Shown piece after piece: positions 8,579-46,022 of a stretch of 64,000 nucleotides of DNA. The stretch's first letter is position 1, and each line of letters starts with the position of its first letter. The stretch lies in the NCBI RefSeq assembly GCF_023954335.1, contig NZ_JAMLIE010000005.1:30965-94964 (forward strand), read 5' to 3'. This DNA comes from Aquamicrobium sp. Its GTDB lineage: Bacteria; Pseudomonadota; Alphaproteobacteria; Rhizobiales; Rhizobiaceae. Position numbers and translations under genes: made by a program. The notes under the pieces were generated by a model. The model was not told the origin of the DNA. It was given only the letters and a program-made list of their open reading frames with translations, and did no database searches.

Positions 8579-8582
<4 letters not shown>
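7743..8582 (+). CDS. dppD: Dipeptide ABC ATPase
   Basis: Walker A GESGSGKS, signature MSGGQ, ADEPTTALD. Confidence 0.95.
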
Positions 8583-9421
<839 letters not shown>

Positions 9422-24889: not shown

Positions 24890-24972
24890 TCGGACCCTCC
24901 GGTGGATGCTGAAGCTTGGTAACTCCAGTCTCCCCGGTCCGGTCCGAATGGACAACCTCCCGAAAGCTCACA
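23938..24972 (-). mobile_element. IS481-family insertion sequence
   Basis: TGT...ACA ends with imperfect IRs (TGTGGAGCCTCAAGAGGTTGTC vs rc TGTGAGCTTTCGGGAGGTTGTC); ACTAG(C/A) on both flanks. Confidence 0.92.
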
Positions 24973-26296: not shown

Positions 26297-26315
26297 GGTT
26301 CCTCCCCGCGCCGGC

Positions 26316-33800: not shown

Positions 33801-35007
33801 CGACGTGCGCGCCCGCGGGGCGGCGCCGATCGCGCCGTCCGGCGGCCATGAGGTCGCGGCACGGCTGGTGCTCGACCCCGGCGACAACCTGGTCGAGCTC
33901 GTCGCCTACAACGCCGCCGACCTGATCGCCTCGCCGCCGGCGACGGCGCTGGTGCGGTGGGACGGCGTCGCCAGCAGCGAGCCGCCGCGGCTGCACGTCC
34001 TCACCGTCGGCGTCAACGACTATGCGGACGGGCGGCTGAAGCTCAACTTCGCCGCCGCCGACGCCAGGGCCCTCGCCGCGGCGATGACGCAGACGGGCGA
34101 GGCCATCTACGCCTCGGTCGAGGTGACGACGCTGCTCGATAACGAGGTGACGGCGGCGGGGCTGGAGGCCGCGTTCGCGGGCCTGTCGCAGGCCGTGCAG
34201 CCGCAGGACGTGTTCGTCTTCTTCCTCGCCGGCCACGGCAAGACGCTGGAGGGCGAGTATTTCTACCTGCCGCAGGATTTCCGCTTCGCCGGCGGCGATC
34301 CGGTGCGCGAGTTCGGGCTGGGCCAGGACCGGCTCCAGGAATGGGTGGCGCGGATCGCGGCGCGCAAGTCGGTGCTGATCTTCGACACCTGCGAGAGCGG
34401 GTCGCTGACGCTCGCCGGCCTGCGCGGCGTCGACGCGGCGCTGGCGCAGTCGGCGGCGGTGGCGCGGCTGACCCGGGCGACCGGCCGCACCATCCTGTCG
34501 GCCGCCACCGACACCGAGCCGGCGCTGGAGGGCTATCGCGGCCACGGCGTGCTCACCTACGCGCTGCTCGACGGCTTCGACGCCGCCGACGCAAACGCCA
34601 ACGGCACCATCGAGGTGACGGAGCTCGCCGCCTTCGTCGACGCGCAGGTGCCCGACATCAGCACCCGCGCCTTCGGCTTCCGGCAGGTGCCGCAGATGTC
34701 GATCCGCGGCAGCGACTTCCCCGTGGTGCGCCAGTCGAGGGTGCTGGCCGGCGGCGAGCCCGCCGCGCCGCGCTATCCCGAGACGATCACCCATGTCGCG
34801 ACCGGCGGCACGGTCGTCCACGACGCACCGGGCGGCAACCCGGTGATGGAGGTGCCGGCCGGCGTCTTCTTCGGCGTCCACCTGATCGCCGAGGAAGGCG
34901 GCTGGGCGCATGTCGCCCGCGAGGGGCTGGCGCTCGGCTATGTCCGCTCCGAGGCGCTGATGCGCCTGCAATACGCGTCCGCCCCGGCGTGGCGGGCTAC
35001 AGCCTGA
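30817..35007 (+). CDS. Secreted WG-repeat + WD40 + Ig-like + peptidase C14 (caspase-like) + SH3-like protein
   Basis: Signal peptide; repeated WG[YLV] motifs; beta-propeller repeats; ALTPEGFF...YRPDLV linker; caspase dyad LAGHG and FDTCESG; C-terminal GW.HV...GYV. Confidence 0.85.
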   Translation: MAARFSFTAGVLLARSLGAAMLAAGAAILPAQAQDGFRWVAEPRFEDAGAAFGGVVPLREGERWGLMGADGAWAAQPMFEAVGRSGGERIAVRLAGKWGVADAAGRLVVPPLYDEIGTPSEVTPVRLDGRWIALDGAGAQLQGDIPIDTLAGNDGTCIAGLKDGVPVVDERGGTPRVTVGDRPAAIRRPSEGRVAVEQGDGWGDVYCGAPSLQAHPTFEELRPFSNDFAAARRDGVWGYISRYSTSWEFTPRFTAAREFADGLAPVQIEGGLWGYVNPFGDMAIEARFTEAYSFSDGLAGIRDGELRGFVATDGTVAVAPQFEDFWRHARGLAPVKLGGLWGVIAPDATAAPGHLDLPLAALRAEGPAQAEFSVLPSVPHLYFTQDYASFHSLWADPAGELLVTTLNEPQGEIEVGVWDLRSGRLVRKVAAPEASQSLMLPGNDLLAIGLRTGHLALTDPVSGRERHRLKPFDGAVIALASSADGRLLAGTDGARIAIWSQESGALLHRFDGKAVALSFSADGSQLFGGTRYGGMTIWQTDTGAPFLALPDQPLEGETVWDSEGLSAAVPTVAVSQDGAVAALRTVSLQGADGFFATSHSVTLTRPTARRTIPIDPPLRDILGLSLSGDGALLALSGLTPDGDETTVLDLYDAASGERIARHSLWEAADAEGRAIDRLIVSADRLGFLPDGDLMIVGEGGQDILRIEPRSGRVEAVIGEPLAFLATPQNGGGQKLFLFEGDEGTVALFDLATGELRRLAQFGGFSTETLFYEIDDMLVIHDVVFDRLVALDAATFAERALTPEEHAALLPRLDALWNVEITPELTARFQSPPGVREAGHVVDGGRIGVVRDEDNSLRVFDLERQELLVRLMMTRAGEWVALTPEGFFAGTAEGAKMVSVAHGLGAFSIDQVYQALYRPDLVREKLAGDPDGLVAAAAGQLNLAVVLDSGPAPRIRFDGLPQRGEAADEVIEMRASLFDAGGGIGRVEWRVNGRTVDVRARGAAPIAPSGGHEVAARLVLDPGDNLVELVAYNAADLIASPPATALVRWDGVASSEPPRLHVLTVGVNDYADGRLKLNFAAADARALAAAMTQTGEAIYASVEVTTLLDNEVTAAGLEAAFAGLSQAVQPQDVFVFFLAGHGKTLEGEYFYLPQDFRFAGGDPVREFGLGQDRLQEWVARIAARKSVLIFDTCESGSLTLAGLRGVDAALAQSAAVARLTRATGRTILSAATDTEPALEGYRGHGVLTYALLDGFDAADANANGTIEVTELAAFVDAQVPDISTRAFGFRQVPQMSIRGSDFPVVRQSRVLAGGEPAAPRYPETITHVATGGTVVHDAPGGNPVMEVPAGVFFGVHLIAEEGGWAHVAREGLALGYVRSEALMRLQYASAPAWRATA

Positions 35008-35992
35008 CGAGCGACTGGTGGGCGCAGCGGAACGAGCCGCCGACGCGATAGACCGCCTCGTAGGGCGTGCGGATCACCTCGATGCCGCGCCGCTTCAATT
35101 CGCCGGCCACGAAATCGTGCGGCTCCTCCGAGGGCATCATCACCGTGCGCTCGTCGAGGACGAGGTTGTTGCAGGCGAGATGGCGCTTGGCCGCCTCCTT
35201 GCCGACGACGATGCGGTCCCAGTCGCGGATATGCGCCGGCAGTCCCTCGACGAACGCCTCCTCGCAGGCCACGACCAACCCCTCGCGCGGCGTCATCAGC
35301 ACGCAGTCGAGATGCGGGAACAGCCCGTCGAGCCGCACCATCTCGACGTCGTACTCGCCGCCGAGCGCGTGCTGGAGCCAGCGCGCGCCTTCCGGGTTGG
35401 AGCAGTTGCCCGAGTGGCCGACGAGGATCTTCCTGCCGAGGACGAAGATGTCACCGCCCTCGAGATAGCCCCAGCCGGGGCCCTCGGCGCTGTCGTCCGC
35501 CCCCGAATCCGGCTGGGCGAAATAGCGCGCCCCGCGCTCCATGGTCGAGGCGAGGATGTGGCGGACGGAAAAGCGCTGGCGGCGGTGGAACAGCGAGCGC
35601 GGCGCCAGCTCGATGACGTTGTTGCCGATGGTGACGAACGGGTCGCGCAGCCACGGGGTCATGCAGCCGTGATGCTCGCCGCGGGGGAAGGAAAGGTTCG
35701 CCTCGCTGACCATGGCCGGCTGCTGCACGACGACGCCGAGGCTCTTCAGAATATCGACCGCGCCGTCGACCTGCGCCTTGAAGGCGGCGAAGTAGTCGGC
35801 GTCGGCCTCGGCGACGTGACGCCCCTGGTTGGCGACCCAGAAGCGCTCGAAGTCGCCATAGGCGCGCGCCTTGGAGTCGGCGAGGAACTTCGGGATGATG
35901 AACTGCTCGGCCCAGCCGTAGACGCATTCCTTCAACGCGCCCCACTCGGCGCTGACGCCGACGGGAAGCTGGCCACTCGCGGTGTTGTGCAT
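34997..35992 (-). CDS. Pentein amidinotransferase-like enzyme, copy 1
   Basis: SAEWGALKECVYG, WLRDP, EGGD, PHLDC, GGSFRC (Asp/His/Cys triad). Confidence 0.88.
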   Translation of the reverse strand: MHNTASGQLPVGVSAEWGALKECVYGWAEQFIIPKFLADSKARAYGDFERFWVANQGRHVAEADADYFAAFKAQVDGAVDILKSLGVVVQQPAMVSEANLSFPRGEHHGCMTPWLRDPFVTIGNNVIELAPRSLFHRRQRFSVRHILASTMERGARYFAQPDSGADDSAEGPGWGYLEGGDIFVLGRKILVGHSGNCSNPEGARWLQHALGGEYDVEMVRLDGLFPHLDCVLMTPREGLVVACEEAFVEGLPAHIRDWDRIVVGKEAAKRHLACNNLVLDERTVMMPSEEPHDFVAGELKRRGIEVIRTPYEAVYRVGGSFRCAHQSLVRL

Positions 35993-36023
35993 TCCATTCT
36001 CCTGCTTGGGCATCGCGCGCGGC

Positions 36024-36971
36024 TCACCGCATCTCGCGATCGTAGGGTTTTCCCGCCGCGGCGGGCGGGCGGGCCTGACCGATCAGCCCGACGAGGGCGA
36101 GGATGGCGATCAGATAGGGGAGCGCGGCGAAGATCTGGTACGGCACCTCGGGGTGCTGGAACTGCATGCGCAGCTGCAACGCGTCGAGAAGGCCGAACAG
36201 CAGGCAGGCGAGCAGCGCCAGCACAGGATTCCAGCGCCCGAGCACGATGGCGGCGAGGCCGATGAAGCCCTTGCCCGCGCTCATGTTGTCGGAGAACAGG
36301 AAGATCTGCGACAGGACGAGATAGGCCCCGCCCAGCGCGCAGATCGTCGACCCGGCGATGACGCACAGATAGCGCAGGGTGAAGACCGGCACGCCCGCCG
36401 CGTCGGCCGCGCCGGGGTTCTCGCCGATGGCGCGGATGTTCAGCCCGAGCTGGGTGCGGAACAGCACCACCTGCGTCACCACGACGACGGCGAGCATCAG
36501 GTAGAACAGGAGGTCCTGGTTGAACAGCACCCGCCCGACGACGGGGATGTCGGCAAGATAAGGAATCGCGACCGGCATGAAGCCTTCGAGCATCAGGCTG
36601 TTGCCGCCGCCCTCGAAGGCGATGCGCGACATGAACGAGGTGAAGCCGATCGAGAACAGGATGATGGCGATGCCGACGACGATCTGGTTGACGCGCAGGG
36701 TGATCGAGACATAGGCGAGCAGCACGCCCGACGCCGCGCCGACGAACAGGGTCGCGGCGAGGCCGCCGAAGGCGTTGCCGGTCAGGTGGGCGCCGAGCGC
36801 GGCGGCGAACGCGCCGAGCAGGAGCTGGCCTTCGAGCGCGATGTTGAAGACGCCGGCGCGCTCGCAGATCAGTCCGCCGATGGCGGCGAAGACGAGCGGC
36901 ACCGACAGGCGCAGCCCCGTCGCCAGAAACTCGCCGAGCTGGAAGGCGTTGAAGAGGAAATCGAACATCAT
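36024..36971 (-). CDS. Nucleoside/sugar-type ABC permease
   Basis: ERAGVFNIALEG, RAIGENP, GKGFIGLAAIVLGRWNP, LPY. Confidence 0.9.
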   Translation of the reverse strand: MMFDFLFNAFQLGEFLATGLRLSVPLVFAAIGGLICERAGVFNIALEGQLLLGAFAAALGAHLTGNAFGGLAATLFVGAASGVLLAYVSITLRVNQIVVGIAIILFSIGFTSFMSRIAFEGGGNSLMLEGFMPVAIPYLADIPVVGRVLFNQDLLFYLMLAVVVVTQVVLFRTQLGLNIRAIGENPGAADAAGVPVFTLRYLCVIAGSTICALGGAYLVLSQIFLFSDNMSAGKGFIGLAAIVLGRWNPVLALLACLLFGLLDALQLRMQFQHPEVPYQIFAALPYLIAILALVGLIGQARPPAAAGKPYDREMR

Positions 36972-38083
36972 GCCTTCTCCGCTTGGGCCGCGACGGCGGG
37001 CGCCTTGGCCGCGCGCCGGCCGGGCCGGTAGCGGAAGGCGAGTCCGACGGCGACGAACAGGACGATCAGCCCCTGCAGCGCCTCGACCATGGTGGTGTCG
37101 ACCCCGACCGCGCGCTGCATGATGCCGGCGCCGGATTGCAGGCCGGCGAGGAACAGCGCCGCCAGCACGGCAAAGAGCGGGCTGAGGCCGGCGAGGAAGG
37201 CGACGATGATGCCCTGCAGCCCGTAGCCGGGGCTGAAATGGTCGAACAGGCGGTATTTCAGGCCGATGACCTCGAACGTGCCGGCAAGGCCGGCCATCGC
37301 CCCGCCGATCAGGAACGAGGTGACGATCAGCCGGCGCACCCCGAGCCCGGAATAGGTGGCGACCGTTGGGTTGTGGCCGACGATCTCGATCGACTGGCCG
37401 AGCGTCGAGCGCTTCATGACGAGCGCGAGCACGAGCGCGGCGGCGACGGACAGGAGGATGCCGAGATGGGCCTGCGTCTGCGGCATGAACACCGGCAGCG
37501 CCCGCTCGGCCGCGATCTCGCGCGAGTAGGGATAGGGCGCGCCCGGCTCCATCAGCCACGAATGGATGATGACGCCGACGGCGTAGATGGCGACATGAGA
37601 CATCAGCAGCGAGGTGATGATCTCGTTGACGCCGCGATAGGCGCGCAGCAGCGCCGGGATCAGCGCCCACAGCGCGCCGCCGAGCGCGCCGGCGAGGATG
37701 GTGAGGACGATGGCGAGCGGGGCCGGGATGAAGTCAGGCAGATAGAGTGCAGCGACGGTGCCGAACAGCGCGCCGATATAGATCTGGCCCTCGCCGCCGA
37801 TGTTGAACAGGCCCGCGCGCAACGGCACGATGACCGCGAGTCCGGCGAGCAGAAGCGGCGACATGCGCACCAGCGTGCTGCCGAGGCCGTAATAGTCGAG
37901 GAAGGCGCCGGAGAAGAGCGCCGCATAGGTGTCGATCGGGTTGGCGCCCGCCAGCAGCACCAGCCCCGCGCCGACGACGAGCGCGGCGAGGATCGCCCAA
38001 ACGCTCTTCAGCATGTAGGCCAGCCGCAGGACGGTCCCGGACACGGAATTCCCGGACATGGAGTTCCCGGACGTGGAATTCAT
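36968..38083 (-). CDS. Nucleoside/sugar-type ABC permease
   Basis: GLFNIGGEGQ, VNEIITSL, GYGLQGIIVAFLA. Confidence 0.9.
   Translation of the reverse strand: MNSTSGNSMSGNSVSGTVLRLAYMLKSVWAILAALVVGAGLVLLAGANPIDTYAALFSGAFLDYYGLGSTLVRMSPLLLAGLAVIVPLRAGLFNIGGEGQIYIGALFGTVAALYLPDFIPAPLAIVLTILAGALGGALWALIPALLRAYRGVNEIITSLLMSHVAIYAVGVIIHSWLMEPGAPYPYSREIAAERALPVFMPQTQAHLGILLSVAAALVLALVMKRSTLGQSIEIVGHNPTVATYSGLGVRRLIVTSFLIGGAMAGLAGTFEVIGLKYRLFDHFSPGYGLQGIIVAFLAGLSPLFAVLAALFLAGLQSGAGIMQRAVGVDTTMVEALQGLIVLFVAVGLAFRYRPGRRAAKAPAVAAQAEKA
38035..38079. repeat. 3 x 15-bp tandem repeat at the permease 5' end
   Basis: TCCCGGACACGGAAT / TCCCGGACATGGAGT / TCCCGGACGTGGAAT, encoding NSTSG-NSMSG-NSVSG. Confidence 0.8.
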
Positions 38084-39603
38084 TGGGCTACCCCCGCCAT
38101 CATGAGGCCGAGCCGCTGCGAGGTGGCCTCGCCGCGCGCGATGTTGCCGACCACCTTGCCCTTGGAGATCACCGCGACCCGGTCGGCGACCTGGAGCAGG
38201 TCCTCCAGCTCCGTCGAGATGTAGAGGATGGCGCAGCCGCGCTCGCGCTGGGCGAGCAGCGTCTTCTGCACGAACTCTATCGCCCCGATGTCGAGGCCCT
38301 TGGTCGGCTGCGAGACGACGAGGACGTCGGGCTCGTCCTCGATCTCGCGCGCGAGGATGATCTTCTGCTGGTTGCCGCCGGAAAGGTCGCGCACGGCCTG
38401 CGCGATGCCGCGCATGCGCACGTCGTAGCGCCGGGCGAGGTCCTTCGCATGGCTGTCGATGGCGGCGAAGTTCATCCAGCCCGCGCGCGAGAACGGCCTG
38501 GAGCGGAAGCTCCGCAGCACCATGTTCAGCGCGACGCTACTGTCGAGGTCGAGGCCCATGCGCTGCCGGTCCTCCGGCACGAAGCCCATGCGCAGCCTGT
38601 TCTTGCGCGCGGCGGGGCCGAAGCCGCGCACGTCGGTGCCGTCGATCTCGATCGAGCCGCCGGCGATCGCGCACACGCCGCCGATGGCCTCGGCGAGCTC
38701 CTTCTGGCCGTTACCGTCGACGCCGGCGAGGCCGAGTATCTCACCCTGGCGCACCTCGAGCGAGAGGCCGTCGACGGCGGCAAGGCCGCGCTCGCCCATG
38801 ACGGTGAGGTCGCTGATCCTCAGCATGGTCCTGCCGGGATTGGCCGGCGACTTGGTCAGCTCCGAGGTGATGTCGCGGCCGACCATCAGCCGCGCCAGCT
38901 CGCGCGCGTCGGTGTCGGCGGTCCGCATCGTCGCCACCACCTTGCCGGCGCGCATCACGGTGATGTCGTCCGACATGCTCAGCACCTCGTCGAACTTGTG
39001 GGTGATGAGGATGATGGTGCGGCCGCTCTCCTTCAGCCGGCGCAGGAGGGCGAAGAACGGGCCGACCTCGCTCGGCGTCAGCACGCTGGTCGGCTCGTCG
39101 AGGATGAGCAGGTCGGCGTTGCGGTAGAGCAGCTTCAGGATCTCGACCCGCTGCTGCATGCCGACCGGCAGCCGCCAGACCGGCTCGTCGGGATCGATCT
39201 CGAAGCCCAGCTCGGCGGCGAGCTCGACGATGCGGGCGCGGTGGCGCTGAAGGTCGAGAAAGCCGCTTCCCGGCAGGCCGATGACGATGTTCTCGACCAC
39301 GGTCATGGTGTCGACCTGCTTGAAATGCTGGTGGACCATGCCGATGCCGAGGGCCAGCGCATGGCGCGGGCTGGCAATCCCGGCCTCCCGGCCGCGGACG
39401 AGGATCGTTCCCGCGTCGGGCTGGTAGAGGCCGTAGATGATGTTCATCAGCGTCGACTTGCCGGCGCCGTTCTCGCCGAGGATGGCATGCACCGACCCTT
39501 CGGCGACGGAGACGTCGACCGCGTCGTTGGCGCAGAACGTCCCGAAGCGCTTGACGACGCCGCGCAGCGCCAGGCGATAGTGCTTGTCGTTCGGCAGGGT
39601 CAT
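38080..39603 (-). CDS. Double-domain ABC ATPase (CUT2/nucleoside type)
   Basis: GENGAGKS, GIGMVHQHF, DEPT, LSGGNQQK. Confidence 0.93.
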   Translation of the reverse strand: MTLPNDKHYRLALRGVVKRFGTFCANDAVDVSVAEGSVHAILGENGAGKSTLMNIIYGLYQPDAGTILVRGREAGIASPRHALALGIGMVHQHFKQVDTMTVVENIVIGLPGSGFLDLQRHRARIVELAAELGFEIDPDEPVWRLPVGMQQRVEILKLLYRNADLLILDEPTSVLTPSEVGPFFALLRRLKESGRTIILITHKFDEVLSMSDDITVMRAGKVVATMRTADTDARELARLMVGRDITSELTKSPANPGRTMLRISDLTVMGERGLAAVDGLSLEVRQGEILGLAGVDGNGQKELAEAIGGVCAIAGGSIEIDGTDVRGFGPAARKNRLRMGFVPEDRQRMGLDLDSSVALNMVLRSFRSRPFSRAGWMNFAAIDSHAKDLARRYDVRMRGIAQAVRDLSGGNQQKIILAREIEDEPDVLVVSQPTKGLDIGAIEFVQKTLLAQRERGCAILYISTELEDLLQVADRVAVISKGKVVGNIARGEATSQRLGLMMAGVAQ

Positions 39604-39682
39604 GGTCCTTCCTTCACGCGAAGGGCGAGCGAAAGGGCGGCCGTCCTCGCGAAAGGCCGCCCCTTGCGTCTTCCGGCGGTGG

Positions 39683-40657
39683 CTACTGCGCCGCGCCGGG
39701 CTTGAGCGAGCCGTCCTTCATCGCGGCGATGGCCGCCTCGACCTGCGCCTTGACCTCGTCGGACACGCCGGCGTTGAAGCCGCCGAGCTTGCCGGCGTCG
39801 GTGCCGATGCCGAAGCGGTAGTCGTGCGCCTCGAGCTCGCCCTTCTTGGCGAGGTCGATCGCCATGTAGAGCGCGCCGCCGAAATCGAGGATGGTCGAGA
39901 CGAGGTTCTCGTCCGGGTACGGGATCGACAGGTCGGAGACGACGCCGACGACATGGACGGAGCGCTGCTTGGCCGCCTGCACCACGCCGAGGAAGCCGCC
40001 GTCGAGATAGGGCAGCATCACGTCCGCGCCCTGCGAGACCATGTTGAGGCTCGCCTCCTTGGCCTTGGCGATGTCGGCCCAGTCGTTGGTGTAGGCGATC
40101 AGCACCTTGCCGTCGGGATTGGCCGCCTCGACGCCGGCGCGGTAGCCGGCGACGATCTGGTCGAAGGCCGGCACCTGCTGGGCCGACAGCGCGCCGACGA
40201 TGCCGCTCTTGCTCATGTGGCCGGCGGTGAGGCCGAGGACGTAGCCGAACTGCTCGTTCTCGAAATTGATGGTCGCGACGCCCTCGGTCGGCGCGCCGTT
40301 CAGCACCAGCACCTTGGCGTCCGGGAACTGCGCGGCGACGCGCTTGGCGGCGTCGGTGTACTCGGCGCCGGCGCCGACGATGACGTTGTAGCCGCGCCGG
40401 GCGTAGTCGGACATCACCTCGACCTGCGAAGGCTGCGGCACCTTCTCGGTATAGGCGGTCTCGACGCCGAGCTCGCCCTTGATCCGCTCGATGCCCTCGA
40501 AGACGTTCTGGTTGAACGCCTTGTCGTTGACGAGGCCCGGCAGGATGACCGCGACCTTGAGGTCGTCGGCCTGGACGGCGGTGGCCATGACGGAGGCAGC
40601 GCCCAGGACGAGCCCTGCCAGCATTCCAGCTATCTTTCGAGACATTTCGTTCCTCAT
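39683..40657 (-). CDS. BMP-family ABC substrate-binding protein
   Basis: Signal peptide, DKAFNQ, FENEQFGY..G, GADV. Confidence 0.9.
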   Translation of the reverse strand: MRNEMSRKIAGMLAGLVLGAASVMATAVQADDLKVAVILPGLVNDKAFNQNVFEGIERIKGELGVETAYTEKVPQPSQVEVMSDYARRGYNVIVGAGAEYTDAAKRVAAQFPDAKVLVLNGAPTEGVATINFENEQFGYVLGLTAGHMSKSGIVGALSAQQVPAFDQIVAGYRAGVEAANPDGKVLIAYTNDWADIAKAKEASLNMVSQGADVMLPYLDGGFLGVVQAAKQRSVHVVGVVSDLSIPYPDENLVSTILDFGGALYMAIDLAKKGELEAHDYRFGIGTDAGKLGGFNAGVSDEVKAQVEAAIAAMKDGSLKPGAAQ

Positions 40658-40694
40658 TGTTTTGCGTGTGACGCGTTCGATTGGGGCATGATCG

Positions 40695-41471
40695 TCATCT
40701 GAATTCCGCGCTCACCGCGGTGCTGACGAGATCGACGAACTCTTCGACCAGGAGCTTGCCGATCTCGGCGGTGGCCGGCTTGCCCGACGAGAGGCAGCCG
40801 GAGGCGGGAACCCAGTCCGGCCTGACCGGGAACAGGTCGTAGGGCGGGAAGTCGGGCAGCGCCTCGTCGGGGATCTTCGAGACGTCGACGAGGTCCGGGT
40901 AGCAGTAGAGCATCATCGCGGTCTCGAGGATGCCGCCATGCTCGAGGTCGAGGCCGGGGAAGCTGACGCCGGCATAGGCCTTTTCCATCGTCTCGGGACT
41001 GATGCGCTCGGCATAGAGCATCTTGAGGATGCGCAGGTCGCGAACGCCGCGCGCCTCGAGGTCGCGCTGGGCGCGGTAGCAGGCCTCGTCGAGGAAGAAG
41101 CGGTTCTCGAAATGCCCGTCGATGACGGCGATCTTGCGCGCGCCGTGGCGGCCGAGCTCGCACAGCACATCGTAGGTCATGGCGATCAGCGTCTCGGCGT
41201 TGAGGCTGGTGGTGCCGCAGCGGTGCGGGCCGCCGCCGGTGCGCACCTGCGAGCGCGCCGCATACATCACCGGCGGGGCGACGACGCCGCCGACGCGCTC
41301 GGCGGCGCGGCGCGCCATGTAGGTCGCCATCATCCAGTCGGTTCCCAGCGGCAGGTGATAGCCGTGCTGCTCGACCGCGCCGACCGGGACGAAGACGATG
41401 GCGTCCTCCTCGGCGATGCGGCGCTGGTACTCGTTCCACGGGATTTCCGACATCATGACGCTGGCGGACAT
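40695..41471 (-). CDS. Creatininase-family cyclic amidohydrolase
   Basis: PVGAVEQHGYHLPLGTD, DGHFEN, EHGGILET; AAGGAG RBS before ATG 41471. Confidence 0.9.
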   Translation of the reverse strand: MSASVMMSEIPWNEYQRRIAEEDAIVFVPVGAVEQHGYHLPLGTDWMMATYMARRAAERVGGVVAPPVMYAARSQVRTGGGPHRCGTTSLNAETLIAMTYDVLCELGRHGARKIAVIDGHFENRFFLDEACYRAQRDLEARGVRDLRILKMLYAERISPETMEKAYAGVSFPGLDLEHGGILETAMMLYCYPDLVDVSKIPDEALPDFPPYDLFPVRPDWVPASGCLSSGKPATAEIGKLLVEEFVDLVSTAVSAEFR

Positions 41472-41482
41472 TGCGCTCTCCT

Positions 41483-42304
41483 TCACGAACGGGCGGCGCG
41501 GGCGTCGAGCGCCGCCACCGCTTTCTGGTGATCCTCGATGGCGAGGTCGAAAATGCGCCCGTACCCGCCGACCCGGTCGGGAAGGCCGGCAAGGCGCAGG
41601 CAGTCCCATACCATCGCCTGGTTGCTGGCGATGACGGGCTTGCCCAGCTCGTCCTCTATTTCCTGGATCACGTCCACCGCGCGCAACGCGCCGCAGCAGA
41701 TGACCACCGCGTCCGCGTCGGGCCTGTCGACGGAGCGGGCATAGGATTTGATGAAGGCCGGGTCGACGAGGTCGATGTCGGTGTTGGACCTCAAGTTCAT
41801 GCCCTGGAACTCGACGATCTCGAAGCCGGCATTGCCGAGGAAGCGGTGAACGACCGTGTTGATCTCGTCGATATAGGGCGTGGCGACCGCGATCCTGCGC
41901 GCGCCGAGCGCCTCGACGGCCCGCACGACGCCGGTGATGACGGTGGTGGGCGCGGCCGCCGCGTGCGCATCGCGCAGCATGCGCATGCATTCCTTCTCGC
42001 CGATGACCATCGCCCCGCTGTTGCAGGTGTAGCAGAGCACGTCCGGCTTGTCGTAGGGCAGGAGAAGCCGCGCCGTGTCGCCGATGGCCGGCGCCATCGT
42101 CACCAGCGTCTCGAGCGTGGCGTCGTTCGACATGGCGATGCGGGCGAAATGGATGCCGACCCCGTCGGGCACCATGCGGAACACGTCGCCCTCGACGGTC
42201 TGCTCCATGGCGAGGACGACGAAGCCGAGCTTCGCGCGCCAGTGGCGGCCCCGGTCGAAGCTGACCTCGACAGGGCGTGACCGGACTTGCCCGGCTTGGT
42301 TCAT
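41483..42304 (-). CDS. Asp/Glu/hydantoin racemase - maleate isomerase family (EutA-like)
   Basis: LGFVVLAMEQTVE, YTCNSG and CCGALR (two cysteines), ATPY, SNQAMVW. Confidence 0.85.
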   Translation of the reverse strand: MNQAGQVRSRPVEVSFDRGRHWRAKLGFVVLAMEQTVEGDVFRMVPDGVGIHFARIAMSNDATLETLVTMAPAIGDTARLLLPYDKPDVLCYTCNSGAMVIGEKECMRMLRDAHAAAAPTTVITGVVRAVEALGARRIAVATPYIDEINTVVHRFLGNAGFEIVEFQGMNLRSNTDIDLVDPAFIKSYARSVDRPDADAVVICCGALRAVDVIQEIEDELGKPVIASNQAMVWDCLRLAGLPDRVGGYGRIFDLAIEDHQKAVAALDARAARS

Positions 42305-42373
42305 CGTCTTCCTCCCAGACTGTCGCCCGTCGCGTCCTCGCGCGGCGGGCGGGAATGCGGCTTGCCCCGTTCG

Positions 42374-43384
42374 TCAGTTGCGGATCAGGGGCTGGTGAGC
42401 GCAGCGGAACGAGCCTCCCGCCATGCTCGGCACCCGGTACGGAATGCGGATCACCTCGAACGTGCGGGCGGTGAGCGCCTGCGCGATCGGGTCGAGCGCC
42501 TCCTCGGCCGCGACCACCACGGTCCTGTCGTCGAGGACGAGGTTGTTGCAGGCCATGTGCGCCTTGGCCAGCGCCTTCGGCACGGGGACGACGTCCCAGT
42601 CGCGCATGAAGCCGGGCAAGCCCTCGGGCAGCGCCTCGACGCAGGCCACGGCGACGCCCTCGCGCGGGGTCATCAGCACGCAGTCGAGATGCGGGAACAT
42701 CGGGTCGATCTTGACCGTGCGGACGCGATAGTCGCCGCCGAGCGCATGCTGGAGCCAGCGCGCGCCCTCGGGATTGCTGCACCCGCCCGAATTGCCGACG
42801 AGGACGTCGCGGCCGAGCACGAAGACGTCGCCGCCCTCGAGATAGCCCCAGCCCGGCGCGTCGACGTAATCGTCGGCGCCGCTGTCCGGCTGGGCGAAAT
42901 AGCGCGCGCCGCGCTCCATGGTCGCGGCGAGGATGTGGCGGACGGAAAAGCGCTGGCGGCGATGGAAGAGCGAGCGCGGCGCAAGCTCGATCACGTTGTT
43001 GCCGATGGTGGCGAAGGGGTCGCGCAGCCACGGGGTGACGACGCCGTGGTCCTCGCCGCGCGGGAATTTCCGGTTCTGCGCGCTGATCTTGCCGGCGACA
43101 TGGACACGCACGCCGAGGCTTTCGAGCAGCGCGATCGCGCCGCGGATCTGGCCGCTCATCTCGGCGAACAGCTCCGGCCATGCGTCCTTGAGGTCGCGGC
43201 CCTGGTTCTTCGCCCAGAATTGGCCGAACTCGCCCTGCGCGCGCAGCTTGCTGTCGTCGAGGAACACCGGCAGGACGAAGGTGTCGGGCGAGCCGTAGAC
43301 GCACTCCCTCAGGGTCGCCCATTCCGATTCGACGCAGATCGGCGCGTCATGCGCTGCGAGCGGCGGCCACGCGGCTTCGCCCAT
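42374..43384 (-). CDS. Pentein amidinotransferase-like enzyme, copy 2
   Basis: ESEWATLRECVYG, WLRDP, EGGD, PHLDC, GGSFRC; clear paralog of 34997-35992. Confidence 0.88.
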   Translation of the reverse strand: MGEAAWPPLAAHDAPICVESEWATLRECVYGSPDTFVLPVFLDDSKLRAQGEFGQFWAKNQGRDLKDAWPELFAEMSGQIRGAIALLESLGVRVHVAGKISAQNRKFPRGEDHGVVTPWLRDPFATIGNNVIELAPRSLFHRRQRFSVRHILAATMERGARYFAQPDSGADDYVDAPGWGYLEGGDVFVLGRDVLVGNSGGCSNPEGARWLQHALGGDYRVRTVKIDPMFPHLDCVLMTPREGVAVACVEALPEGLPGFMRDWDVVPVPKALAKAHMACNNLVLDDRTVVVAAEEALDPIAQALTARTFEVIRIPYRVPSMAGGSFRCAHQPLIRN

Positions 43385-43522
43385 AAAGGTCTCCTTCCCG
43401 GCTTGACGGACCGGCGGGATGTTAGCCAGCGCCACGAAGGGCAACAGAACAAATCTTGCAATCACATTTGCGCAAACGGGAAAGCTAGGGCCGCCGGCCG
43501 GAACCGCCGGGCCGGAAGCCGG

Positions 43523-44431
43523 TCAGGTCTTGCGCAGCCGCGTCAGCAGGGCGCTGATCACCCGCTTGTCGGCGGCGTCGCGCCGGTAGACCAGGTGGAA
43601 CTGGGCGATCACCGGCGTGTCGGGGGTGACGATCTCGATCAGGTCGCCCGAGCCGACGCGCTCGACGAAATGCGAGGGAAGCAGCGCGCAGCCCACCCCG
43701 GCCAGCACCGAGGCGAGCACCGATTCCAGCGTGCTGCCGCGCGCCGCGACATGCAGCGGGTACTTGTGCTCGAAGGAGCTGAACACGTCCGTCCGATAGG
43801 CGCGGGAGATGTAGGGCACCGTCGGCGTTTCCGAGCCCCAGCTGCTGCGCACCATGTCGTGCGCCGCCTCCAGATGCGGCGAGTGCCGCGACATGTAGAG
43901 CCGCTGCTCCTCGACGAAGGCGGGCTCGTAGATCAGCGGCTCCAGCTTCTCCGGCTGGCCGGTGATGGCGAAATCGAGCTTGCGCTCGCGCACCTGCACG
44001 TCGATCAGCGAGACGGTGTGGACGCTGACATTGATCAGCATGTCGGGAAAGAGCCGGTGCATCTCGGACAGCGCGTCGACGACGCCGGCCTGCGGATTGG
44101 TGATCACGTTGTCGATGACGCCGAGGCTGAACGTGCCGCCGAGCGTCTGGCGCGTACTCTGGATGCGCTGCTCGAAGGAATGCAGGTCCGACAGGAGCTG
44201 CGTCGCGGCGCTGTGGACGTCCTCGCCCTGCGGCGTCAGCGCAAAGCCCGAGCGGCCGCGCCGGCACAGCTCGATCCCCAGCCGCGTCTCCAGCGCGGAA
44301 AGATCGCGGCTGACGCTCGAAAGGCTCGACCCGGTGCGGTAGGCGGCGGCCGAGACGCCGCCATATTCGACCACGGCGAGGAACGTCCGCAATTGCTTGA
44401 TGTCGAAATTCGAGACGGCGAAACGGCTCAT
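43523..44431 (-). CDS. LysR-family regulator
   Basis: FDIKQLRTF...LSALETRLG.ELC.RGRSGF.LT..G. Start is ATG 44431 or GTG 44443. Confidence 0.88.
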   Translation of the reverse strand: MSRFAVSNFDIKQLRTFLAVVEYGGVSAAAYRTGSSLSSVSRDLSALETRLGIELCRRGRSGFALTPQGEDVHSAATQLLSDLHSFEQRIQSTRQTLGGTFSLGVIDNVITNPQAGVVDALSEMHRLFPDMLINVSVHTVSLIDVQVRERKLDFAITGQPEKLEPLIYEPAFVEEQRLYMSRHSPHLEAAHDMVRSSWGSETPTVPYISRAYRTDVFSSFEHKYPLHVAARGSTLESVLASVLAGVGCALLPSHFVERVGSGDLIEIVTPDTPVIAQFHLVYRRDAADKRVISALLTRLRKT

Positions 44432-44437
44432 GGCGGC

Positions 44438-44465
44438 GCTCACTTGCGGGAAATTGCAAGTGAGC
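44438..44465. promoter_or_regulatory. Perfect 10-bp inverted repeat upstream of lysR
   Basis: GCTCACTTGC-GGGAAATT-GCAAGTGAGC in the divergent lysR/hydrolase region. Confidence 0.5.
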
Positions 44466-44708
44466 TAAGCATCTTCATCCTTCTTCCGCAACCGGGCCGG
44501 CCCTATCGTCGCGCAGGACGCAGCGGGCGTCGACGCGGCGGGCCTTCTGGGCCATGAATGGCCGCGCCGGCACCGGAAAGGCGCTCCGGCGGGACGGGGC
44601 GGGAGGACGACACTTGCGATTTTCGGCATCTTTTCCACCGGCGACGGCCCTGCCCCGGAACCACTCTGCCCGCTCCATCCTCCCTCCGGCCGGCCGAGGA
44701 TATGCCCG

Positions 44709-45944
44709 ATGAAGAACGACCAGCGCAGGATCCCCATCCACACCGAACGCATGATGAACGACCTCGACACGATGCGCGGCTTCGGGGCCTGCGGCACCGG
44801 CGTCGTGCGCCCGGCCTTCAGCGAGGTCGACATCCGCTCGCGCGGCTGGCTGGTCGAGCGGATGGAGGCCGCCGGCCTCGAGGTCCATGTCGACGAGATC
44901 GGCAACGTCTTCGGCCTCCCGCCCGGCGACGGCCCGTGCTTCCTCGTCGGCTCGCATTCCGACACGCAGCCGGAAGGCGGCTGGCTCGACGGCGTCTACG
45001 GCGTCGTCGCCGGCCTCGAGATCGCGCGCGCCAGCCTTGAGGCCGGCGGGCCGCGCATCGCCTGCGTGTCGTTCCAGGACGAGGAAGGCCGCTTCACGCC
45101 GTTGACCGGCAGCCGGGTGTGGACCGGCCGGCTGGCGCCGGAGACCGCCGACGCCCTCGCCGACAGCGCCGGTGTCACCCTTGCCGAGGCGCGGCGAAAC
45201 CGGGACGGGTTGCCGCCGGCCTCTGCGGTCTCGCCCGACCGGTTCAGCGGCTTTCTCGAGATCCATATCGAGCAGGGGCCGGTGCTCGACATCGCCGGCG
45301 AGCGCATCGGCGTGGTCGAGAGCATCGTCGGCATCCGCAGCCAGCGCATGAGCTTCGTCGGCGAGCAGAATCACGCCGGCACCACGCCGATGGCGATGCG
45401 CCGCGACGCCTTCCAGGCGCTGGTCGCGTTCACGGCCGAGATCGGGCGGCGCTTCGCCGGCATGATCGGGCCGGCGACGGTGTGGACTATCGGCCAGGTG
45501 GCGCTGCACCCCAACGCCACCTCGATCGTGCCCGGCCGCGCCGATTTCTGGCTGCAATGGCGCGACGGCGACGACGCGCTCCTCGACCGGATGCGCGACG
45601 TGATCGACGCGACCGCCGGGGAGGTCGCGCGCGACCGCGGCCTGTCGTGGAGCAAGTCCGACTACTCGCAGATCGCCGCCACGCGCAGCGATCCGGCGCT
45701 GGTCGAGGCCCTCGCCGGCGCGGCAGAGCAGCTGGCCCCCGGCGCATGGAGGCGCATGCCCTCGGGCGCGCTGCACGACGCGGCCAACGCCTCGACGCGC
45801 ATGCCGATGGCGATGCTGTTCCTGCCCTCCATCGGCGGCCGCAGCCACTGCTTCGACGAGGACACGCGCCGCGAGGACCTCGTCCTCGGCGCCGAGGTCC
45901 TCGCCGCCGCCATCGGGACCTTCCTCGCCCCGCCGGCGCGGTGA
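44709..45944 (+). CDS. M20 Zn hydrolase, allantoate amidohydrolase/N-carbamoyl-amino acid hydrolase family
   Basis: GSHSDTQPEGGWLDG, DEEGRF, EIHIEQGP, NHAGTTPM, SGALHDA, SH. Confidence 0.9.
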   Translation: MKNDQRRIPIHTERMMNDLDTMRGFGACGTGVVRPAFSEVDIRSRGWLVERMEAAGLEVHVDEIGNVFGLPPGDGPCFLVGSHSDTQPEGGWLDGVYGVVAGLEIARASLEAGGPRIACVSFQDEEGRFTPLTGSRVWTGRLAPETADALADSAGVTLAEARRNRDGLPPASAVSPDRFSGFLEIHIEQGPVLDIAGERIGVVESIVGIRSQRMSFVGEQNHAGTTPMAMRRDAFQALVAFTAEIGRRFAGMIGPATVWTIGQVALHPNATSIVPGRADFWLQWRDGDDALLDRMRDVIDATAGEVARDRGLSWSKSDYSQIAATRSDPALVEALAGAAEQLAPGAWRRMPSGALHDAANASTRMPMAMLFLPSIGGRSHCFDEDTRREDLVLGAEVLAAAIGTFLAPPAR

Positions 45945-46022
45945 TGGAGGAACGGGAGATCGCCCGGCCGGCCGCCGGGCTGCCCGATCATGTGCCGCTG
46001 CATCTCGACGAGGCCTTCCTCA
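45944..46022 (+). pseudogene. 5' remnant of a gene coupled to the M20 hydrolase
   Basis: TGATG overlap; 26 codons with host-like GC3 (MEEREIARPAAGLPDHVPLHLDEAFL), then codon usage breaks where the antisense gntR end begins. Confidence 0.4.

What the first reader, a model, noticed from the sequence alone, without database searches (positions are those of the whole stretch)
34997..46022. Twin-pentein/creatininase/racemase/carbamoylase cluster: possible pathway for a chiral cyclic guanidine
Seen: pentein-2, racemase, creatininase, BMP-ABC (4 genes) and pentein-1 on one strand, with a LysR and a divergent carbamoylase-like M20; catalytic residues look intact. Known: creatininases open 2-imino-imidazolidin-4-one rings, penteins cleave or transfer amidino groups, this racemase family includes hydantoin/allantoin racemases, and these M20s remove N-carbamoyl groups. 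Inference: creatinine is achiral, so the racemase points to a 5-substituted analogue. Candidates are glycation hydroimidazolones (MG-H1, opened to carboxyethyl-arginine) or the guanine oxidation product 5-guanidinohydantoin. Two penteins could handle two stereoisomers or consecutive steps.
Basis: partly seen in the sequence, partly recalled or inferred. Interest (0 to 1): 0.75.

Follow-up and report, generated by a model that had tools for sequence, protein, structure and literature searches.

The report
Operon for a creatinine-like cyclic guanidine
This is a real, conserved but uncharacterised bacterial operon that most likely imports a creatinine-like ring compound (probably not creatinine itself), opens the ring and strips off its guanidine nitrogen in steps; the exact substrate cannot be named from sequence alone.

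Summary
Window 34997-45944 carries, on the minus strand, LysR, pentein-2, a two-cysteine EutA/AMDase-type racemase-fold protein, a creatininase, a four-gene BMP-type ABC importer and pentein-1. Gaps from pentein-2 to pentein-1 run from -7 to 79 bp. A divergent M20 ureido-hydrolase completes the set. Catalytic residues are intact in all the enzymes.

- Both penteins belong to the amidinotransferase branch (AGAT/HsvA/SxtG/StrB1), not the DDAH/ADI hydrolases.
- The creatininase keeps its metal ligands and His178. In the window and its 12 close orthologues the creatinine-contacting residues are replaced (S78T, Y121F, W154A, D155E, W174L).
- The cluster fuses two modules that occur separately elsewhere. 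One is M20-LysR-pentein with an amino-acid ABC importer (about 20 of 37 loci hold all three). The other is creatininase-BMP-ABC-pentein, found in about 18 loci.

The second module often sits with the EutA-like gene, a quinone oxidoreductase, an allantoate-amidohydrolase-type M20, a PuuE-like hydrolase and an 8-oxoguanine-deaminase-type gene.

Best reading: catabolism of a substituted cyclic acylguanidine via ring opening, then guanidino acid, ureido acid and amine. An iminoallantoin/guanidinohydantoin-type substrate fits the accessory genes best but is unproven. I found no published function.

The parts
34997..36013 (-). pentein-1 (338 aa): an amidinotransferase-branch pentein of the clade linked to creatininase modules. 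It is the last gene of the operon.
   Evidence: Weak Pfam ADI/DDAH hits. Best PDB sequence hits are HsvA, AGAT, SxtG and StrB1. The AF2 model (pLDDT 84.6) gives Foldseek TM 0.73-0.81 to amidinotransferases against about 0.6 to DDAH/ADI. D124, E185, D188, H234, D236 and C330 are kept. It is 64% identical to pentein-2. In the tree it groups with creatininase-linked penteins, on a long branch.
36024..36971 (-). ABC permease B (BPD_transp_2)
   Evidence: Pfam PF02653; start ATG at 36971 with an RBS.
36968..38083 (-). ABC permease A (BPD_transp_2)
   Evidence: Pfam PF02653; overlaps its neighbours by 4 bp.
38080..39603 (-). ABC ATPase with two ATP-binding cassettes (507 aa)
   Evidence: Pfam ABC_tran with two stretches. 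The best NCBIfam hits are ATPases of BMP-type and sugar-type importers.
39683..40657 (-). BMP/PnrA-family periplasmic binding protein with a signal peptide
   Evidence: Pfam Bmp at 188 bits. Nearest solved structures are Lbp, the Brucella BMP, the atrazine/guanine-binding AtzT and the nucleoside binders PnrA/TmpC.
40695..41471 (-). creatininase-family lactam hydrolase (258 aa) with an altered substrate pocket
   Evidence: PF02633 at 179 bits; TIGR04448 at 286.9 bits, above the 235 cut-off. It is 42% identical over its full length to P. putida creatininase. Metal ligands and H178 are kept. S78T, Y121F, W154A, D155E and W174L are present in the window and its 12 close orthologues.
41483..42304 (-). 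EutA/arylmalonate-decarboxylase-like protein (273 aa) of the two-cysteine racemase/isomerase type
   Evidence: PF17645 at 111 bits. TIGR02990 EutA at 201.6 bits, below the 318 cut-off. Nearest PDB entries are AMDase and maleate isomerase. Cys94 and Cys204 are kept in all 19 homologues.
42374..43384 (-). pentein-2 (336 aa from ATG 43384): an amidinotransferase-branch pentein of the 'triad' clade. It is the first gene of the operon.
   Evidence: It lies in a 39-member clade (support 98/99) that normally sits beside LysR and an M20.
43523..44431 (-). LysR-type regulator, 62-70% identical to the LysR of the triad loci
   Evidence: Pfam HTH_1 plus LysR_substrate; synteny.
44441..44462 (.). perfect inverted repeat CACTTGC-N8-GCAAGTG, a candidate LysR operator. 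A half-site ATTGCAAG recurs at 43455-43462, upstream of pentein-2.
   Evidence: For the full repeat, 0 of 100 shuffles gave a match. The 8-mer occurs 3 times in the window against 0.87 expected.
44709..45944 (+). M20 hydantoinase/carbamoylase-family amidase (411 aa), a ureido-group hydrolase, divergent from the LysR
   Evidence: TIGR01879 at 281.6 bits, above the 204 cut-off. NF009529 at 452 bits, below the 508 cut-off. Nearest PDB entries are 6c0d, L-carbamoylases, allantoate amidohydrolase, beta-alanine synthase and ureidoglycolate hydrolase; the metal and catalytic motifs are present.

Best explanation
This is a LysR-controlled catabolic operon for a cyclic acylguanidine. The substrate would be a creatinine-like lactam, most likely bearing a substituent that makes a ring carbon chiral, and not creatinine itself.

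Proposed steps:
1. The BMP-type ABC system imports the heterocycle.
2. The EutA-like two-thiol enzyme interconverts stereoisomers at the carbon next to the carbonyl.
3. The variant creatininase hydrolyses the ring amide to an open-chain guanidino acid.
4. An amidinotransferase-like pentein attacks the guanidino carbon with its Cys. Most likely it converts the group to a ureido group and releases NH3. Alternatively it removes the amidino group as urea or passes it to an acceptor.
5. The M20 enzyme hydrolyses the ureido (N-carbamoyl) compound to the amine, CO2 and NH3.

The operon arose by inserting the creatininase/BMP module (with pentein-1) into an M20-LysR-pentein-2 unit, in the place where related genomes carry an amino-acid ABC importer. 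So the open-chain guanidino acid is probably the common intermediate of both modules.

Shown here: gene content, intact catalytic residues, family placement, the altered creatininase pocket and recurrent synteny. Inferred: every chemical step, the direction of pentein chemistry and the nature of the substrate.
For: Gene set and tight spacing.

The binding-protein-dependent ABC system and the LysR point to uptake and catabolism. BMP relatives of known structure bind purines, nucleosides and hydroxyatrazine.

Creatininase:
- The catalytic core is kept, but S78T, Y121F, W154A, D155E and W174L are present in the window and its 12 close orthologues.
- More distant BMP-linked creatininases also have T78, E155, L174 and a small residue at 154. 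Creatininases not linked to BMP mostly keep Trp/Trp.
- One Trp/Trp example sits with an M24 creatinase-like gene and a BCCT transporter.
- One genome (G097) has both types.

Recurrent synteny over 18 loci: BMP 16, ABC genes 15, pentein 15, M20 14, EutA-like 13, quinone oxidoreductase 13.

Pentein and M20 are coupled in both modules, although the M20s are only about 35% identical. They are 10 bp apart in Rhodoligotrophos. In two distant loci a BiuH-like amidase sits inside the operon.

Roseovarius and Microvirga loci add a deaminase of the 8-oxoguanine-deaminase type and a PuuE-like ring hydrolase. That would be a second route (deaminate, then open the ring) converging on the same ureido acid. 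It parallels the two known creatinine pathways (established knowledge).

Aquibium (L015) has the same fused layout with a single, triad-clade pentein.

The candidate LysR operator and a shared half-site lie in front of both transcription units.
Against: No assay, expression or fitness data are available.

NCBI's creatininase equivalog model scores the protein above its cut-off, so plain creatinine is not excluded.

All characterised relatives of the penteins are transferases that release the amine and keep the amidino group. A deiminase in this branch would be new.

The EutA-like gene is missing from 5 of 18 loci, so a racemase is not obligatory.

The quinone oxidoreductase found in 13 of 18 loci has no role in this scheme and is absent from the window cluster.

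The triad occurs alone in many genomes, sometimes inside canavanine-type loci. Its substrate may therefore be unrelated to the creatininase product.
Confidence: 0.5

Rival explanations
1. Plain creatinine/creatine utilisation by a non-canonical route. Creatinine is imported and opened to creatine. A pentein then either deiminates creatine to N-carbamoylsarcosine, which the M20 hydrolyses to sarcosine, or hydrolyses it to sarcosine plus urea in place of the M24 creatinase.
For: TIGR04448 'creatininase' scores above its cut-off, and the protein aligns over its full length with the P. putida enzyme. There is no M24 creatinase in the cluster. Creatinine is by far the most abundant natural cyclic acylguanidine (established knowledge). 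N-carbamoylsarcosine is a known intermediate of the other creatinine pathway.
Against: Both stacking Trp, plus Y121, S78 and D155, are replaced throughout the clade. The window scores lowest of 18 TIGR04448 hits. Trp/Trp enzymes are the ones next to a creatinase-like gene. G097 has both types. Creatinine is achiral, yet a racemase-fold gene is present in 13 of 18 loci. No sarcosine oxidase or dehydrogenase was seen in any locus. The accessory genes (PuuE-like, 8-oxoG-deaminase-type, quinone oxidoreductase) have no role.
Confidence: 0.15
2. Two unrelated modules merely lie side by side. The M20-LysR-pentein-2 unit handles an amino-acid-type guanidine (for example a canavanine- or arginine-related compound). 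The EutA-like/creatininase/BMP-ABC/pentein-1 unit handles a different heterocycle.
For: The triad occurs without any creatininase in most of 37 loci, with its own polar amino-acid ABC system. In Agrobacterium pusense, Neorhizobium, Pararhizobium and Shinella curvata it lies with homoserine dehydrogenase. DapA and a Cys/Met-type PLP enzyme join it in some of these, like the published canavanine locus. The two penteins belong to different clades.
Against: In the window and in Aquibium the creatininase module has no LysR of its own, replaces the triad's transporter and follows pentein-2 after 69 bp. Aquibium has only the triad-clade pentein. The two modules are also adjacent in a Rhodovibrionaceae MAG, in Microbaculum and in Rhodoligotrophos.
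Confidence: 0.15
3. Degradation of free arginine glycation products. MG-H1 or G-H1 is opened to carboxyethyl- or carboxymethyl-arginine. The pentein acts like a DDAH, giving citrulline plus alanine or glycine, and the M20 acts as a citrullinase.
For: The ring is a 5-substituted 2-amino-imidazolone, racemic at C5. AGAT-like enzymes bind arginine-type substrates. The triad uses Lys/Arg/Orn-like binding proteins. Ureohydrolases of the arginase family are frequent neighbours.
Against: A BMP-type binding protein is an unusual choice for an alpha-amino acid. Nothing explains the PuuE-like, 8-oxoG-deaminase-type or allantoate-amidohydrolase-type genes. No paper on such a pathway was found.
Confidence: 0.08
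4. A biosynthetic or amidino-shuttling function. The amidinotransferase-like proteins would build a guanidine compound, which the creatininase-like enzyme cyclises.
For: All characterised relatives of the penteins are biosynthetic amidinotransferases.
Against: A binding-protein-dependent ABC importer lies inside the operon. There is LysR control and ureido-hydrolase partners. There are no NRPS/PKS or other biosynthetic genes.
Confidence: 0.03

Closest known systems
Creatinine degradation pathway I: creatininase CrnA of Pseudomonas putida, followed by M24 creatinase
   Same: Same fold and binuclear-metal catalytic set. The alignment is full-length at 42% identity, and the protein scores above the TIGR04448 cut-off. 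The first chemical step, hydrolysis of a cyclic acylguanidine, is probably the same.
   Different: Five substrate-contact residues are changed, including both stacking Trp. There is no creatinase. The partners are AGAT-like penteins, an M20 ureido-hydrolase, a racemase-fold protein and a BMP-type importer.
Hydantoinase process and allantoin pathway: hydantoin/allantoin racemase, then ring hydrolase, then M20 carbamoylase or allantoate amidohydrolase
   Same: The logic is the same: racemise, open the ring, remove the carbamoyl group. The last enzyme is from the same M20 family (TIGR01879). Related loci carry PuuE-like and allantoate-amidohydrolase-type genes.
   Different: The ring hydrolase is a creatininase, which implies a 2-imino ring rather than a 2-oxo ring. 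An extra pentein step is needed to deal with the guanidine. The racemase-fold protein is EutA/AMDase-like, not HyuE/HpxA-like.
L-arginine:glycine amidinotransferase family (AGAT, StrB1, HsvA, SxtG)
   Same: Fold, Cys-His-Asp/Glu triad and the two acidic guanidinium binders.
   Different: Only 21-24% identity. The proteins fall below the Pfam gathering score and lack the Met302 equivalent. They sit in catabolic operons beside ureido-hydrolases. The subfamily is narrow and separate: one 50%-identity representative, with the next hit at 273 bits.
Agmatine deiminase pathway: pentein AguA, then N-carbamoylputrescine amidohydrolase
   Same: The proposed two-step removal of a guanidine: guanidino to ureido plus NH3, then ureido to amine plus CO2 and NH3.
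   Different: A different pentein branch. The second enzyme there belongs to the nitrilase family, not M20. The pentein activity proposed here is untested.
Ectoine utilisation protein EutA
   Same: Best NCBIfam hit for the racemase-fold protein. EutA is likewise thought, without proof, to act on a cyclic amidine carboxylate (PMC5924519 listed).
   Different: The score is 201.6 bits against a cut-off of 318. There are no eutBCDE/doe genes nearby. Homologues at 50% identity in gammaproteobacterial MAGs sit beside M24 creatinase-like genes.

Membership tests
Creatininase (PF02633 / TIGR04448) | Profile score above the curated cut-offs | tested here: met
   PF02633 scores 179.1 bits against a cut-off of 31.3. 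TIGR04448 scores 286.9 bits against 235.
Creatininase (PF02633 / TIGR04448) | Binuclear metal ligands E34, H36, D45, H120 and E122, and catalytic H178 (P. putida numbering) | tested here: met
   All six are conserved in the window and its 12 close orthologues.
Creatininase (PF02633 / TIGR04448) | Creatinine-binding pocket: Trp154 and Trp174, with Ser78, Tyr121 and Asp155. Their roles are recalled from the P. putida structures; these are the positions of the deposited W154/W174 mutants. | tested here: not met
   A154, L174, T78, F121 and E155 are found in the window and its 12 close orthologues. Trp/Trp is kept in most creatininases not linked to BMP.
Creatininase (PF02633 / TIGR04448) | Hydrolysis of creatinine to creatine | not testable with these tools
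   Needs an enzyme assay.
Canonical creatinine pathway I | M24 creatinase, and sarcosine oxidation, linked to the creatininase | tested here: not met
   None is present in the window cluster or in 18 related loci. The genome's M24 creatinase-like gene lies beside a distant creatininase-family paralogue that lacks E122.
Pentein superfamily, amidinotransferase branch | Pentein fold, closest to AGAT-type structures | tested here: met
   AF2 model with pLDDT 84.6. Foldseek to HsvA, AGAT, SxtG and StrB1 gives E 1e-20 to 1e-25 and TM 0.73-0.81. DDAH and ADI give E 1e-12 and TM about 0.6.
Pentein superfamily, amidinotransferase branch | Catalytic Cys, His, Asp/Glu and the two acidic guanidinium binders (AGAT C407, H303, D254, D170, D305) | tested here: met
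   C330, H234, E185, D124 and D236 are conserved in all 55 sequences.
Pentein superfamily, amidinotransferase branch | Pfam PF02274 gathering score | tested here: not met
   21.7 and 20.6 bits against a cut-off of 22.8.
Pentein superfamily, amidinotransferase branch | Amidino transfer from a guanidine donor to an amine acceptor | not testable with these tools
   Needs an assay. The genomic context suggests hydrolytic use instead.
Asp/Glu/hydantoin racemase superfamily (EutA / AMDase / maleate isomerase group) | Profile match | tested here: inconclusive
   PF17645 Amdase scores 111.3 bits against a cut-off of 25.9 (met). PF01177 scores 26.9 against 31 (not met). The TIGR02990 EutA equivalog scores 201.6 against 318 (not met).
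Asp/Glu/hydantoin racemase superfamily (EutA / AMDase / maleate isomerase group) | Two catalytic cysteines, the racemase/isomerase type. Decarboxylases have Gly at the first site. | tested here: met
   Cys94 (YTCNSG) and Cys204 (ICCGAL) are kept in all 19 homologues.
M20 hydantoinase/carbamoylase-family amidases (TIGR01879) | Profile score above the cut-off, with metal and catalytic motifs present | tested here: met
   281.6 bits against a cut-off of 204. The motifs align with L-carbamoylase 3n5f and with 6c0d.
M20 hydantoinase/carbamoylase-family amidases (TIGR01879) | Membership of a named specific equivalog (AllC, ErtE, allantoate amidohydrolase) | tested here: not met
   All are below their cut-offs. 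The best is NF009529, a generic 'Zn-dependent hydrolase', at 452 bits against 508.
BMP/PnrA-type ABC importer | A Bmp binding protein, a duplicated ATPase and two BPD_transp_2 permeases in one operon | tested here: met

The most novel reading that the evidence does not exclude
The creatininase/BMP/pentein/M20 module would be a guanidine counterpart of the allantoin pathway. It would scavenge deep oxidation products of guanine: iminoallantoin and its isomer 5-guanidinohydantoin.

Proposed steps:
1. The BMP system imports the compound.
2. The EutA-like enzyme racemises C5.
3. The variant creatininase opens the 2-iminohydantoin ring to 2-guanidino-2-ureidoacetate.
4. The pentein, a new hydrolytic activity in the amidinotransferase branch, turns this into allantoate or ureidoglycine.
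5. M20 enzymes finish the breakdown.

In related loci an 8-oxoguanine-deaminase-type enzyme and a PuuE-like enzyme would provide the parallel route through allantoin.
Probability: 0.2. Interest if true: 0.8.

Novelty: new variant of a known kind. Interest (0 to 1): 0.55.

Why it matters
If the scheme is right, it defines a third way for bacteria to take apart creatinine-type rings. The steps would be ring opening, then conversion of guanidino to ureido, then removal of the carbamoyl group.

It would give a first function to a narrow, unstudied subfamily of amidinotransferase-like proteins. It would also mark a creatininase subfamily whose database name ('creatininase', above the cut-off) is probably misleading.

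If the substrate turns out to be an oxidised-guanine product, it would show that such lesions are a nutrient with a dedicated pathway. That would bear on the open question of where environmental guanidine compounds go.

If the substrate is just creatinine, the value is smaller: a non-orthologous replacement of creatinase.

Tried and rejected
- **Literature.** Eight full-text searches covered creatininase with racemase, amidinotransferase, BMP or Trp154/174; EutA with hydroxyectoine; iminoallantoin catabolism; the canavanine locus; and hydroimidazolone hydrolases. None found a paper on this cluster. The guanidine review PMC12623156 only speculates that cyclic-urea enzymes may act on guanidinohydantoin.
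- **Riboswitches.** There was no Rfam match in the cluster at E<=1, nor in seven related loci at gathering scores.
- **Promoter and terminator scans.** Nothing above the shuffled expectation.
- **Earlier scan notes.** Look-ups by sequence and by words returned nothing.
- **Flanks of related loci.** I looked for purine-catabolic genes (HIU hydrolase and the like). The small ORFs had no Pfam match, and other flanking genes were unrelated: betaine-type oxidoreductase, GntR, FAA hydrolase, a sigma factor.
- **'Orphan' triad-clade penteins in marine Rhodobacteraceae.** Their contexts are unrelated and uninformative.
- **Recent duplication of the two penteins.** Rejected: they are 64% identical and sit in separate, well-supported clades.
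- **The other two creatininase-family genes of the genome (C1, C5) as backups.** Rejected: both lack E122 and are only 32-34% identical to the P. putida enzyme.
- **Pocket geometry.** This could not be analysed, because model coordinates are not exposed.

Full report
**1. What is there**

The window is about 69% G+C, so mechanical ORF lists are crowded with spurious frames. Family searches give one coherent set on the minus strand:
- pentein-1, 34997-36013
- two BPD_transp_2 permeases, 36024-36971 and 36968-38083
- a duplicated ABC ATPase, 38080-39603
- a BMP/PnrA-family binding protein with a signal peptide, 39683-40657
- a creatininase, 40695-41471
- an EutA/arylmalonate-decarboxylase-like protein, 41483-42304
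- pentein-2, 42374-43384
- a LysR regulator, 43523-44431

On the plus strand, divergent from the LysR, lies an M20 hydantoinase/carbamoylase-family amidase at 44709-45944. The creatininase was missed at first because it lies in the frame of a spurious 875-aa ORF.

Gaps from pentein-2 to pentein-1 are 69, 11, 37, 79, -4, -4 to -7 and 10 bp.

The left neighbour is a convergent 1398-aa caspase/WG-repeat protein. The right neighbours are a GntR regulator, a TRAP transporter, an HpcH aldolase and a CoA-transferase. Neither side belongs to the unit.

**2. The enzymes**

*Creatininase.*
- It scores above both curated cut-offs: PF02633 at 179 bits and TIGR04448 at 286.9 bits against 235.
- It aligns end to end with the P. 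putida enzyme at 42% identity.
- The metal ligands E34, H36, D45, H120 and E122, and H178, are kept.
- S78, Y121, W154, D155 and W174 are T, F, A, E and L. This holds in the window and in all 12 close orthologues fetched.
- W154 and W174 are the positions of the deposited P. putida mutants, read off. Their stacking role is recalled from the structural papers, which were not in the searchable library.
- Among 401 sampled alphaproteobacterial genomes, 15 carry a TIGR04448 hit, and the window scores lowest.
- Creatininases next to a BMP gene all have T78, E155, L174 and a small residue at 154. The others mostly keep aromatic residues at 154 and 174.
- A Trp/Trp example (L082) lies with an M24 creatinase-like gene and a BCCT transporter.
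- One genome (G097) has both kinds.
- This is good evidence for a separate specificity class, but it does not prove it.

*Penteins.*
- The two are 64% identical to each other.
- They are weakly related to DDAH/ADI profiles and fall below the Pfam cut-off.
- They are clearly closest to amidinotransferases. Sequence hits to HsvA, AGAT, SxtG and StrB1 reach E about 1e-17. No ADI or DDAH structure scores below E=1.
- An AlphaFold model (pLDDT 84.6) gives Foldseek TM 0.73-0.81 to amidinotransferases, against about 0.6 for DDAH, ADI and ArgZ.
- The equivalents of AGAT D170, D254, H303, D305 and C407 are D124, E185, H234, D236 and C330. They are conserved in all 55 family members collected.
- The subfamily is narrow. 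In a library of 1.84 billion 50%-identity representatives the whole clade collapses to one representative at 622 bits, and the next hit scores 273 bits.
- Database names for it are 'hypothetical protein', 'glycine amidinotransferase' or 'DDAH family'.

*EutA-like protein.* It is nearest to arylmalonate decarboxylase and maleate isomerase structures. It has Cys at both catalytic positions, which is the racemase/isomerase state, in all 19 homologues. It is below the EutA equivalog cut-off and below the Pfam cut-off for Asp/Glu/hydantoin racemase.

*M20.* It has all the metal and catalytic motifs. Every close structural relative is a ureido-group hydrolase: L-carbamoylase, allantoate amidohydrolase, beta-alanine synthase or ureidoglycolate hydrolase.

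*BMP protein.* Its solved relatives bind adenine, guanine, hydroxyatrazine or nucleosides.

**3. Neighbourhoods elsewhere**

*Searching with pentein-2* gave 37 loci, almost all alphaproteobacterial.
- In about 20 of them the pentein lies next to an orthologous LysR (62-70% identity) and a divergent orthologous M20 (60-67%).
- Those loci usually carry a polar-amino-acid ABC system and often an arginase-family ureohydrolase.
- In Agrobacterium pusense (plasmid), Neorhizobium, Pararhizobium and Shinella curvata this 'triad' lies beside homoserine dehydrogenase. DapA and a Cys/Met-type PLP enzyme join it in some of these. That recalls the published canavanine locus of Rhizobiales (PMC9533460).

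*Searching with the creatininase* gave 11 close loci. Genome sampling added three more distant ones, and a look-up of the closest relative of pentein-1 added a further locus.
- The recurring unit is creatininase, BMP binding protein, ATPase, two permeases and a pentein.
- Over 18 loci, some cut by contig ends, the counts are: BMP 16, the ABC genes 15, pentein 15, an M20 14, the EutA-like gene 13, a PIG3-type quinone oxidoreductase 13, a PuuE-like polysaccharide-deacetylase-fold hydrolase 9, agmatinase-family ureohydrolases 8, and an amidohydrolase of the 8-oxoguanine-deaminase type 5.
- The amidohydrolase scores above that equivalog's cut-off in four loci (NF006055, 701 bits against 532). The M20 in six loci is above the allantoate-amidohydrolase subfamily cut-off (NF006769, 542 against 452).
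- Two distant loci carry a BiuH-like isochorismatase-fold amidase between the creatininase and the BMP gene.
- In Rhodoligotrophos ferricapiens the pentein (83% identical to pentein-1) and an M20 are 10 bp apart.
- A gammaproteobacterial MAG has a pentein, an MFS transporter, the EutA-like gene and a creatininase together.

*The pentein tree* splits cleanly. A 39-member triad clade (support 98/99) includes pentein-2. All 16 creatininase-linked penteins, including pentein-1, lie on the other side.

The window, like Aquibium sp. A9E412, is therefore a fusion. The creatininase module sits directly after the triad's pentein, where other genomes have the amino-acid transporter. Aquibium has no second pentein.

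**4. How it most likely works**

The binding-protein-dependent importer and the LysR point to catabolism.
- The variant creatininase should open a cyclic acylguanidine to a guanidino acid.
- The pentein Cys should attack the guanidino carbon.
- The M20 should hydrolyse a ureido group.

Pentein and ureido-hydrolase are paired in both modules, with M20s that are only about 35% identical, and once with an additional amidase of another fold. The simplest reading is guanidino to ureido to amine, as in the agmatine deiminase pathway.

Loci that also carry a ring deaminase and a PuuE-like ring hydrolase would then have a second route to the same ureido acid. This mirrors the two known creatinine pathways (established knowledge). 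I give this direction of pentein chemistry about 55%.

The alternative follows what all characterised relatives do: release the amine and transfer the amidino group, to water or to an acceptor. That stays at about 30%. It would need the substrate to carry its own ureido group in order to explain the M20.

The two-thiol EutA-like enzyme would equilibrate stereoisomers at the carbon next to the carbonyl. It is absent from 5 of 18 loci, so it is helpful rather than essential.

The quinone oxidoreductase, absent from the window cluster, is not explained. It might reduce an unsaturated or 'dehydro' form before ring opening. The genome has an allantoate-amidohydrolase-like gene and a QOR-like gene adjacent elsewhere.

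A perfect inverted repeat, CACTTGC-N8-GCAAGTG, sits just upstream of the LysR start. A half-site recurs upstream of pentein-2. These are candidate operators and only weak evidence for co-regulation.

**5. Which substrate**

This cannot be settled here.
- *Creatinine itself* (about 15%) is favoured by abundance and by the equivalog score. It is disfavoured by the pocket changes, the racemase, the lack of any sarcosine genes and the accessory genes.
- *An iminoallantoin/5-guanidinohydantoin-type compound* (about 20%) has the widest explanatory reach. The purine-type binding protein, the 8-oxoguanine-deaminase-type gene, the PuuE-like gene, the allantoate-amidohydrolase-type M20 and a C5 racemase are the allantoin pathway with a guanidine added. 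However, no core purine-catabolic genes were found in the flanks, and the window itself lacks those accessory genes.
- *Glycation hydroimidazolones* (about 8%) fit the arginine flavour of the triad but not the accessory genes.
- *Other options* remain open, such as glycocyamidines of other amino acids, or reduced 2-aminopyrimidinones handled like the reductive pyrimidine pathway.

No paper describing this cluster or either subfamily was found.

**6. Verdict**

The finding is a real, conserved and uncharacterised catabolic operon.

The main corrections are:
- the amidinotransferase affiliation of the penteins;
- the modular origin of the two copies;
- the EutA/AMDase affiliation of the 'racemase'.

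It is a new variant of known ring-opening and decarbamoylation pathways, not a new kind of system. Interest is moderate (0.55). It would rise sharply if the oxidised-guanine reading, or a hydrolytic activity in the amidinotransferase branch, were shown.

Noticed in passing
own genome C1:822686-824630 (outside the window): A distant creatininase-family paralogue, lacking E122 and both Trp, sits directly upstream of an M24 creatinase-like gene and downstream of a Liv-type ABC system. A third paralogue lies at C5:30133-31203.
   Followed up: partly
window 44441-44462 and 43455-43462: A perfect inverted repeat CACTTGC-N8-GCAAGTG lies at the LysR start. The half-site ATTGCAAG recurs upstream of pentein-2. 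These are candidate LysR operators.
   Followed up: partly
L093 (Agrobacterium pusense plasmid NC_022536, 325705-333385): The M20-LysR-pentein triad is embedded with homoserine dehydrogenase and an amino-acid ABC system. Related chromosomal loci (L006, L010, L013, L038) add, in various combinations, DapA and a Cys/Met-type PLP enzyme. This resembles the published canavanine-degradation locus, so the triad may process a guanidine by-product or canavanine itself.
   Followed up: partly
L042, L044, L046 (gammaproteobacterial MAGs): Homologues of the EutA-like protein at 50% identity sit next to an M24 creatinase/ectoine-hydrolase-like gene; L044 and L046 also carry a BCCT transporter. This is a different pairing of the same racemase-fold subfamily.
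   Followed up: partly
L094 (Rhodoligotrophos ferricapiens CP133319) 8340-8945: A DUF1989 gene, the family of the carboxyguanidine deiminase subunits (from memory), lies between the BMP-ABC/QOR operon and the LysR-pentein-M20 operon.
   Followed up: no
own genome C1:2120308-2122571: An allantoate-amidohydrolase-like M20 (52% to the accessory M20 of related loci) and a PIG3-type quinone oxidoreductase (42%) are adjacent, next to a sugar-type ABC system and IS elements. They may supply the accessory steps missing from the window cluster.
   Followed up: no
window 23933-24967: An IS481-family transposase gene (rve, HTH, LZ_Tnp_IS481 domains) lies about 10 kb from the cluster.
   Followed up: no
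window 52331-53197 and 25100-26347: An isochorismatase-family hydrolase lies beside the HpcH/CoA-transferase genes, and a second M20 peptidase lies further left. Neither is syntenic with the cluster in other genomes.
   Followed up: no
window 34997-36013: Pentein-1 sits on an unusually long terminal branch (0.56 against a median of 0.058), although all its catalytic residues are kept.
   Followed up: partly
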